Positions 33,464 through 33,495 of a stretch of 64,000 bases of DNA are shown here, in pieces. Position 1 is the stretch's first letter, and the number at the start of each line of letters is the position of its first letter. The position numbers and the translations under genes were made by a program. Origin of the DNA: Escherichia coli (GTDB lineage Bacteria; Pseudomonadota; Gammaproteobacteria; Enterobacterales; Enterobacteriaceae); the NCBI RefSeq assembly GCF_045037415.1, contig NZ_CP173438.1. The stretch is one strand, 5' to 3'. The notes under the pieces were generated by a model. That model did not search any database. It saw only the letters and a program-made list of their open reading frames with translations, and had not been told where the DNA came from.

Positions 33464-33495
33464 ATGCATTTCATTCCGTTCTGATGGCATTTCAT
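33464..33495 (+). promoter_or_regulatory. Direct-repeat response-regulator site upstream of yhjX (YpdB/PyrR-type): ATGCATTTCAT - 11 bp - GGCATTTCAT
   Basis: Two copies of GCATTTCAT separated by exactly 11 bp, ending 84 bp upstream of the yhjX start. Confidence 0.6.

What the first reader, a model, noticed from the sequence alone, without database searches (positions are those of the whole stretch)
33464..33495. Direct-repeat response-regulator site upstream of yhjX
Two copies of GCATTTCAT separated by exactly 11 bp lie 84 bp upstream of the yhjX start. This matches the type of direct-repeat site described for the pyruvate-responsive YpdA/YpdB two-component system that activates yhjX. The repeat also generates a spurious minus-strand ORF (33406..33618) in the track.
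Basis: partly seen in the sequence, partly recalled or inferred. Interest (0 to 1): 0.4.

Follow-up and report, generated by a model that had tools for sequence, protein, structure and literature searches.

The report
Known YpdB operator upstream of yhjX

Summary
The window is E. coli and the repeat lies in the yhjY-yhjX intergenic region. GCATTTCAT occurs at 33466-33474 and 33487-33495, with a 21-bp period. The repeat extends to 14 of 15 matching bases (GCATTTCAT[T/G]CCGTT). The 9-mers are 12 bp apart. The "11 bp" of the finding applies to the published 10-mer GGCATTTCAT.

The region 33442-33499 matches 56 of 58 bases of the K-12 fragment that Behr et al. 2016 (PMC4847170) describe as the DNase I-protected YpdB site. 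That fragment holds site A (distal, high affinity) and site B (proximal).

One difference is the first base of site A, which is T here and G in K-12. The window's exact 60-mer, which carries the T, is found in 1626 of 5413 complete E. coli genomes. The position also varies (G or T) across 80 Enterobacteriaceae species, so it is probably neutral.

Across those species both sites, their spacing and a TAnnnT -10 element 41-42 nt downstream are conserved. A third phased element, GTCATTCATTCC at 33445-33456, is conserved as strongly.

The minus-strand ORF 33406-33618 is spurious.

The parts
33442..33499 (+). Region equivalent to the K-12 fragment that holds all nucleotides protected by YpdB in DNase I footprinting (58 nt)
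   Evidence: It matches the native part of the SPR oligo in Behr 2016 Table 1 at 56 of 58 bases. The differences are at 33444 (A here, C in K-12) and 33465 (T here, G in K-12).
33445..33456 (+). Element 0: GTCATTCATTCC, a third phased copy exactly 21 bp upstream of site A. It matches the site A 12-mer at 9 of 12 positions in register and shares TCATTCC with it.
   Evidence: Mean information content is 1.80 bits over 80 distinct sequences, against 0.27 for the upstream flank and 0.54 for the next spacer. It lies inside the footprint fragment. Its role is inferred, not shown.
33465..33474 (+). YpdB site A (distal, high affinity): TGCATTTCAT here, GGCATTTCAT as published. The conserved core is the 12-mer GCATTTCATTCC at 33466-33477.
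   Evidence: Sequence and repeat. Site identity from the A-site mutant oligo in Behr 2016. Mean information content is 1.96 bits. The first base is G in 51 and T in 29 of 80 distinct sequences.
33475..33485 (+). 11-bp spacer between the published 10-mers (TCCGTTCTGAT). Its first three to four bases (TCCG) are conserved as part of the site A 12-mer and the rest is variable.
   Evidence: mean information content 0.66 bits for 33478-33486.
33486..33495 (+). YpdB site B (proximal, lower affinity, needs site A): GGCATTTCAT. The conserved core is GCAyyTCATGCC at 33487-33498, followed by a conserved T-run at 33500-33503.
   Evidence: Sequence. B-site mutant oligo in Behr 2016. Mean information content is 1.81 bits.
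33529..33534 (+). Inferred -10 hexamer TATGGT. There is no recognisable -35 at 33506-33511 (CCCAGG), as expected for an activator-dependent promoter. The inferred transcription start is near 33541.
   Evidence: A TAnnnT hexamer lies 41-42 nt after the first G of site B in all 82 sequences examined. The consensus scan did not call any promoter here. The start site was not verified.
33567..33570 (+). Shine-Dalgarno AGGA, 8 nt before the ATG
   Evidence: Read from the sequence. gcAGGA is visibly shared by most genera in the printed upstream sequences.
33579..34787 (+). yhjX coding sequence (402 aa MFS transporter), the regulated gene
   Evidence: RefSeq annotation of matching genomes. Pfam MFS_1. 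NCBIfam oxalate/formate antiport family and L-lactate MFS transporter models, both above cut-off.
33406..33618 (-). Spurious 70-aa ORF that runs through the promoter and the yhjX start
   Evidence: ORF and translation. No Pfam family. 6 amino-acid differences from K-12 over 70 aa. Frame not kept open in other genera.

Best explanation

Shown in K-12 by others:
- Extracellular pyruvate activates the kinase YpdA, which activates YpdB.
- Activated YpdB first occupies the distal site A (about 1.2 nM).
- Site A occupancy allows a second monomer to bind the proximal site B (about 21 nM, with fast on and off rates).
- The authors propose that occupation of site B recruits RNA polymerase, and that rapid release from B and then from A explains the observed pulsed yhjX transcription.

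Inferred here:
- The 21-bp period places the sites on one face of the helix.
- Site B ends a few bases upstream of the -35 position of a promoter whose -10 is TATGGT at 33529-33534.
- The same mechanism operates in this strain, because the site differs from K-12 only at a naturally variable position and ypdAB is nearly universal in E. coli.
- A third conserved copy 21 bp further upstream (33445-33456) probably extends the array as a weak third contact.
For: - Locus identity: the yhjY-yhjX intergenic region, present in 5422 of 5426 complete E. coli genomes.
- Match to the published site: 56 of 58 bases identical to the footprint fragment, with both GGCATTTCAT motifs in place.
- Published binding data: sites A and B, their affinities, the dependence of B on A, and yhjX as the only target gene induced by extracellular pyruvate (PMC4847170).
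- Published conservation of the motifs, and pyruvate induction of PyhjX in other genera (PMC5552118). YpdB dependence in uropathogenic UTI89 (PMC9765748).
- Independent sequence evidence: in 80 yhjX loci from more than 20 genera, sites A and B are islands of 1.96 and 1.81 bits. Spacers and flanks carry 0.27-0.66 bits. The 21-bp spacing is invariant, and a TAnnnT lies 41-42 nt downstream.
- The 14/15 repeat is unique in the window, against 0.03 expected.
- The regulator: ypdAB is in 5422 of 5426 E. coli genomes. YpdB has Response_reg and LytTR domains.
Against: - Nothing contradicts the assignment.
- Binding and induction were not tested in this strain. Site A here begins with T instead of G (33465), and no accessible data measure the effect of that base.
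- ypdAB lies outside the 64-kb window, so its presence in this genome is inferred from its near-universality.
- The transcription start, and so the positions relative to +1, are inferred from conservation only. The consensus promoter scan found nothing here.
- The primary paper (Fried et al. 2013, J Bacteriol 195:807) could not be read.
Confidence: 0.93

Rival explanations
1. The site is the YpdB operator, but the G-to-T change at the first base of the high-affinity site A (33465) weakens or alters binding. In that case this lineage, about 30% of E. coli including ST131, would induce yhjX with a different threshold or pulse shape from K-12.
For: - Site A is the entry site, and its inactivation abolishes all binding.
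- The change lies in the published 10-mer.
- It is a fixed lineage haplotype linked to three other promoter differences, at 33431, 33444 and 33519.
Against: - The position is G in 51 and T in 29 of 80 distinct sequences across genera at site A. The equivalent base at site B is T in 44, G in 28, C in 6 and A in 2, so it behaves as a degenerate position outside the conserved core.
- yhjX is induced in B2 strains: 43-fold by gentamicin in ATCC 25922 (PMC6545925), and YpdB-dependent in UTI89 (PMC9765748). I did not check which allele those strains carry.
Confidence: 0.1
2. The repeat is a chance or slippage-derived duplication with no regulatory role.
For: Exact 9-mer pairs at spacing 18-24 are not rare in this window: 7 observed.
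Against: - The extended 14/15 match is unique in the window, against 0.03 expected.
- Both copies and their spacing are conserved across more than 20 genera while the flanks are not.
- Published footprint and SPR data show binding.
Confidence: 0.01
3. The repeat is bound mainly by another regulator, for example the paralogous LytTR regulator BtsR, rather than by YpdB.
For: The two pyruvate systems are interconnected. In UTI89, yhjX induction depends on BtsS together with YpdB.
Against: - That cross-talk is described as the non-cognate kinase BtsS acting with YpdB, so YpdB is still the DNA-binding partner.
- The BtsR site in the yjiY promoter has an unrelated sequence (ACCGCTTA / ACCACTCA), and that fragment served as the non-binding control DNA for YpdB.
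Confidence: 0.03
4. The minus-strand ORF 33406-33618 encodes a small protein with a repeated NGMKC motif, and the DNA repeat reflects coding constraint.
For: The ORF is open in both this strain and K-12.
Against: - It has no Pfam match.
- It shows 6 amino-acid differences from K-12 over 70 aa.
- The stop-to-stop length of the frame ranges from 21 to 200 codons (median 45.5) across 82 sequences.
- Conservation is confined to three 12-nt islands rather than showing a codon pattern.
Confidence: 0.01

Closest known systems
YpdB (PyrR) binding sites A and B in the yhjX promoter of E. coli K-12 (Fried et al. 2013; Behr et al. 2016, PMC4847170)
   Same: It has the same locus, the same two motifs, the same 11-bp spacer between the 10-mers and the same distance to the start codon. 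It matches the footprint fragment at 56 of 58 bases.
   Different: The first base of site A is T instead of G (33465), and 33444 is A instead of C. This is a common natural haplotype: the exact 60-mer is in 1626 of 5413 genomes.
BtsR (YehT) site in the yjiY/btsT promoter of E. coli
   Same: The regulator is a paralogous LytS/LytTR pyruvate-sensing system. The site is also a direct repeat with a period of about 21 bp. The published fragment also shows three phased copies, GCCGCTCA-N12-ACCGCTTA-N13-ACCACTCA (my reading of the oligo).
   Different: The motif sequence is unrelated, the regulator and target gene differ, and YpdB does not bind it: it was used as control DNA.
Generic LytTR response-regulator operators (AgrA P2/P3, ComE, PlnC/D, VirR)
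   Same: They share the architecture of two 9-11-nt repeats separated by 11-13 nt, placed upstream of the promoter, as summarised in PMC4847170.
   Different: Here there is a conserved third copy upstream.

Membership tests
YpdB operator of yhjX | Lies immediately upstream of a yhjX orthologue | tested here: met
   RefSeq annotation of matching genomes gives yhjY and yhjX on either side. The protein is an MFS transporter of the oxalate/formate antiport family.
YpdB operator of yhjX | Direct repeat of the motif GGCATTTCAT | tested here: met
   Site B is GGCATTTCAT. Site A is TGCATTTCAT, matching 9 of 10. The deviating base is variable across genera.
YpdB operator of yhjX | 11-bp spacer between the 10-mers (21-bp period) | tested here: met
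   The spacer is 33475-33485, 11 bp. The same spacing occurs in the published oligo and in all 80 related loci.
YpdB operator of yhjX | Coincides with the DNase I-protected region | tested here: met
   Window 33442-33499 aligns to the fragment said to comprise all protected nucleotides, at 56 of 58 bases. The footprint figure itself (Fried 2013) was not readable.
YpdB operator of yhjX | The cognate YpdA/YpdB system is present in the same genome | not testable with these tools
   ypdAB lies outside the window. It is present in 5422 of 5426 complete E. coli genomes, so its presence here is very likely but inferred.
YpdB operator of yhjX | YpdB binds the site, and pyruvate induces yhjX through it, in this strain | not testable with these tools
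   This needs EMSA or SPR and reporter assays. It has been shown only for K-12 sequences.
LytTR-type operator architecture | Two repeats of 9-11 nt separated by 11-13 nt | tested here: met
   10-mers with an 11-nt spacer, against the criterion quoted from PMC4847170.
LytTR-type operator architecture | The proximal repeat abuts the -35 region of an activator-dependent promoter | tested here: inconclusive
   A conserved TAnnnT lies 41-42 nt after the start of site B. That places the end of site B about 7 nt before the expected -35. No experimental transcription start was found, and the consensus scan did not call a promoter here.

The most novel reading that the evidence does not exclude
The yhjX operator may be a three-copy array rather than two. 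GTCATTCATTCC (33445-33456), GCATTTCATTCC (33466-33477) and GCATTTCATGCC (33487-33498) lie exactly 21 bp apart on one helix face, and all three are conserved at 1.8-2.0 bits across more than 20 genera.

The upstream copy would be a weak third YpdB contact. It lies inside the footprint fragment but showed no separate binding event at 50 nM or less in SPR. It might set DNA bending or the cooperativity that underlies pulsed expression. The paralogous BtsR operator may be built the same way.

No paper I could read names this element. Fried et al. 2013 could not be checked.
Probability: 0.4. Interest if true: 0.3.

Novelty: already known. Interest (0 to 1): 0.1.

Why it matters
The site is a textbook-level regulatory element of a well-studied E. 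coli two-component system, so recognising it adds no new biology. It does show that the first-stage reader can recover a real operator from sequence alone.

Two small points go slightly beyond the accessible literature:
- The first base of the published 10-mer is not conserved. The real core is a 12-mer, GCAyyTCAT(T/G)CC.
- A third phased copy upstream is as conserved as the two named sites. It would be a cheap target for mutagenesis by anyone studying how LytTR regulators generate pulsed expression.

Tried and rejected
- Primary paper: Fried et al. 2013 is not held under PMC3562098 or its DOI. The same is true of Behr et al. 2014. Details of the footprint, the mutational analysis and any mapped transcription start come only second-hand from PMC4847170.
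- Literature searches: the search combining yhjX, YpdB and 'transcription start site' found no paper. A search for the upstream element's sequence found only the oligo table. A search for GGCATTTCAT found only PMC4847170 as relevant.
- Promoter scan: the sigma-70 consensus scan called no promoter between the sites and the ATG. Its only hit, 33337-33365, spans the 3' end of yhjY (which ends at 33350) and the first intergenic bases. This is expected for an activator-dependent promoter.
- Alternative -10: I considered CATAAA at 33512-33517 and rejected it. That stretch is not conserved in Enterobacter, Lelliottia and related genera, whereas TAnnnT at 33529-33534 is at a fixed distance in all sequences.
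- Other copies in the window: the three further GCATTTCAT copies (8991, 20044 and 55838, all on the minus strand) have no partner at plus or minus 21 bp, so I do not count them as sites.
- Statistics: the 9-mer pair alone is not significant enough. The case rests on the extended repeat, the conservation and the published data.

Full report
**Observation.** The sequence at 33440-33500 reads GTCGAGTCATTCATTCCTGAACTAATGCATTTCATTCCGTTCTGATGGCATTTCATGCCG.
- GCATTTCAT occurs at 33466-33474 and 33487-33495, with a start-to-start period of 21 bp.
- The two 9-mers are separated by 12 bp, not 11. The 11-bp figure is correct only for the 10-mers at 33465-33474 (TGCATTTCAT) and 33486-33495 (GGCATTTCAT).
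- The last repeat base is 84 positions before the A of the ATG at 33579.
- The repeat extends to 15 nt with one mismatch: GCATTTCATTCCGTT / GCATTTCATGCCGTT.
- A bare 9-mer pair at spacing 18-24 is not unusual here: 7 occur in the window, against 1.7 in Markov simulations. The 14/15 pair is the only one in 64 kb, against 0.03 expected.

**Where it is.**
- The region 33300-33700 matches 5422 of 5426 complete E. coli genomes. It is 100% identical to strain SK1144 and about 94% identical to K-12.
- It is annotated as the yhjY-yhjX intergenic region.
- The RefSeq start of yhjX corresponds to the ATG at 33579.
- The product is a 402-aa MFS transporter (Pfam MFS_1). It passes the NCBIfam cut-offs for the oxalate/formate antiport family and the L-lactate MFS transporter models.

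**Comparison with the published site.**
- Behr et al. 2016 (PMC4847170) state that YpdB binds a well characterised direct repeat of GGCATTTCAT in PyhjX, called sites A and B.
- Their SPR fragment comprises all nucleotides protected in the DNase I footprint of Fried et al. 2013.
- The native part of that fragment is CGCGTCATTCATTCCTGAACTAAGGCATTTCATTCCGTTCTGATGGCATTTCATGCCG.
- It aligns to window 33442-33499 with two differences: 33444 (A here, C in K-12) and 33465 (T here, G in K-12, the first base of site A).
- The mutant oligos show that site A is the distal copy and site B the proximal one.

**How it works (published for K-12).**
- Extracellular pyruvate activates YpdA and YpdB, and yhjX is the only target.
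- The phosphomimetic YpdB-D53E binds as monomers.
- Site A has a KD of about 1.2 nM with slow on and off rates. Site B has a KD of about 21 nM with fast rates.
- Inactivating A abolishes all binding. Inactivating B leaves a single binding event.
- The authors propose sequential cooperative loading (A, then B), recruitment of RNA polymerase by the protomer at B, and rapid clearance (B, then A), to account for the pulsed expression.
- YpdB has a receiver domain and a LytTR domain.
- ypdAB lies far outside the window but is present in 5422 of 5426 E. coli genomes.

**Independent evidence from related sequences.** A scan of one genome per species returned 80 yhjX loci from more than 20 Enterobacteriaceae genera, including Escherichia, Citrobacter, Enterobacter, Lelliottia, Buttiauxella, Kluyvera, Kosakonia, Klebsiella oxytoca and Cedecea.
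- All carry the two copies at the same 21-bp period, 64-84 nt before the ATG in all but two loci. In those two the simple two-copy search locked one repeat too far upstream.
- I anchored the sequences on site A without gaps and measured mean information content per segment:

| Segment | Window coordinates | Mean information content (bits) |
|---|---|---|
| Upstream flank | 33421-33443 | 0.27 |
| Upstream third element | 33445-33456 | 1.80 |
| Spacer | 33457-33465 | 0.54 |
| Site A 12-mer (GCATTTCATTCC) | 33466-33477 | 1.96 |
| Spacer | 33478-33486 | 0.66 |
| Site B 12-mer (GCAyyTCATGCC) | 33487-33498 | 1.81 |

- This is a clear phylogenetic footprint. It agrees with the report of conserved YpdB motifs in Behr et al. 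2017 (PMC5552118).
- That paper also reports that Salmonella lacks the system, which fits the absence of Salmonella from my loci.

**The T at 33465.**
- The exact 60-mer 33445-33504 is present in 1626 of 5413 complete E. coli genomes, including an O25b:H4-ST131 strain. The other 3787 fall in the 95-99% identity band.
- Three sampled genomes of the one-mismatch (98.3%) class, including an O157:H7, all have the K-12 base G, together with linked differences at 33431, 33444 and 33519.
- Across genera the position is G in 51 and T in 29 distinct sequences at site A. The equivalent base at site B is T in 44, G in 28, C in 6 and A in 2.
- The first base of the published 10-mer is thus degenerate, and the T is most likely neutral. 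This was not tested experimentally.

**Promoter geometry (inferred).**
- A TAnnnT hexamer lies 41-42 nt after the first G of site B in every sequence. It is TATGGT at 33529-33534 here and TATCGT, TATTGT or TACTCT elsewhere.
- The expected -35 position (33506-33511, CCCAGG) has no resemblance to TTGACA, and the consensus scan called nothing. This is what one expects of an activator-dependent promoter.
- With a start near 33541, the 10-mers would be centred near -50.5 (B) and -71.5 (A).
- I found no accessible experimental start site.

**A third copy.**
- Exactly 21 bp upstream of site A lies GTCATTCATTCC (33445-33456). It matches the site A 12-mer at 9 of 12 positions in register and shares the 3' half TCATTCC.
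- It is as conserved as sites A and B, at 1.80 bits, and the ungapped alignment shows its spacing is invariant.
- It lies inside the footprint fragment.
- In SPR at 50 nM or less it does not bind on its own: there is no binding when A is mutated, and it adds no second event when B is mutated. If YpdB contacts it, the contact is weak or needs both other sites.
- No paper in the searchable library names it. Behr 2016 says only that flanking nucleotides influence expression in vivo, citing Fried 2013.
- The BtsR control oligo in the same table also shows three phased copies, GCCGCTCA-N12-ACCGCTTA-N13-ACCACTCA. I did not follow this lead.

**The minus-strand ORF.**
- The ORF 33406-33618 exists, with 70 aa and a GTG start. 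It reads the repeat as NGMKC twice.
- It has no Pfam match and differs from the K-12 version at 6 of 70 residues.
- The open length of its frame varies from 21 to 200 codons in other genera.
The repeat does not generate it.

**Verdict.** The feature is real, functional and already known: it is the YpdB operator of yhjX. Interest is low. The only items beyond the accessible literature are the degenerate first base of the motif and the conserved third phased copy.

Noticed in passing
window 33445-33456: A third phased copy, GTCATTCATTCC, lies exactly 21 bp upstream of YpdB site A. It is near-invariant across 80 species (1.80 bits) and lies inside the published footprint fragment, but no paper I could read names it.
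   Followed up: partly
window 33465 (also 33431, 33444, 33519): The promoter has two haplotypes. The first base of site A is T here and G in K-12 and O157:H7. The window's exact 60-mer, which carries the T, is in 1626 of 5413 complete E. coli genomes, including ST131.
   Followed up: yes
window 33511-33521: Between site B and the inferred -10 lies GCATAAAGCGC, which matches an inverted copy of the motif (GCATGAAATGC) at 8 of 11 positions. The inverted copy is perfect in 9 and matches at 9 or more of 11 in 27 of 70 distinct sequences (Kosakonia, Phytobacter, Pseudescherichia and others). It is absent in Enterobacter-like genera. The site B core GCATTTCATGC is itself a near-palindrome (GCAT/ATGC arms).
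   Followed up: partly
oligo 'yjiY YehT bs' in PMC4847170 Table 1 (not in the window): The BtsR operator fragment shows three phased copies, GCCGCTCA-N12-ACCGCTTA-N13-ACCACTCA. The paralogous system may therefore share a three-copy layout.
   Followed up: no
window 33579-34787: Many RefSeq genomes now name yhjX 'L-lactate MFS transporter', and it passes the NCBIfam equivalog NF049980 (343.7 bits, cut-off 320). The papers I read treat it as a putative pyruvate-related transporter or exporter of unproven substrate.
   Followed up: partly
window 33558-33573 and 33452-33465: An imperfect palindrome, TATTACTGCAGGAATA, overlaps the Shine-Dalgarno sequence. A 14-nt stretch at 33559-33572 is 86% complementary to 33452-33465, which lies between the third element and site A. 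This is probably chance and I did not examine it.
   Followed up: no
window 8985-8999 (minus strand): A single copy, GCATTTCATGCCGAA, matches the extended site B sequence at 13 of 15 positions. It has no partner at plus or minus 21 bp, so it is judged a chance half-site.
   Followed up: yes
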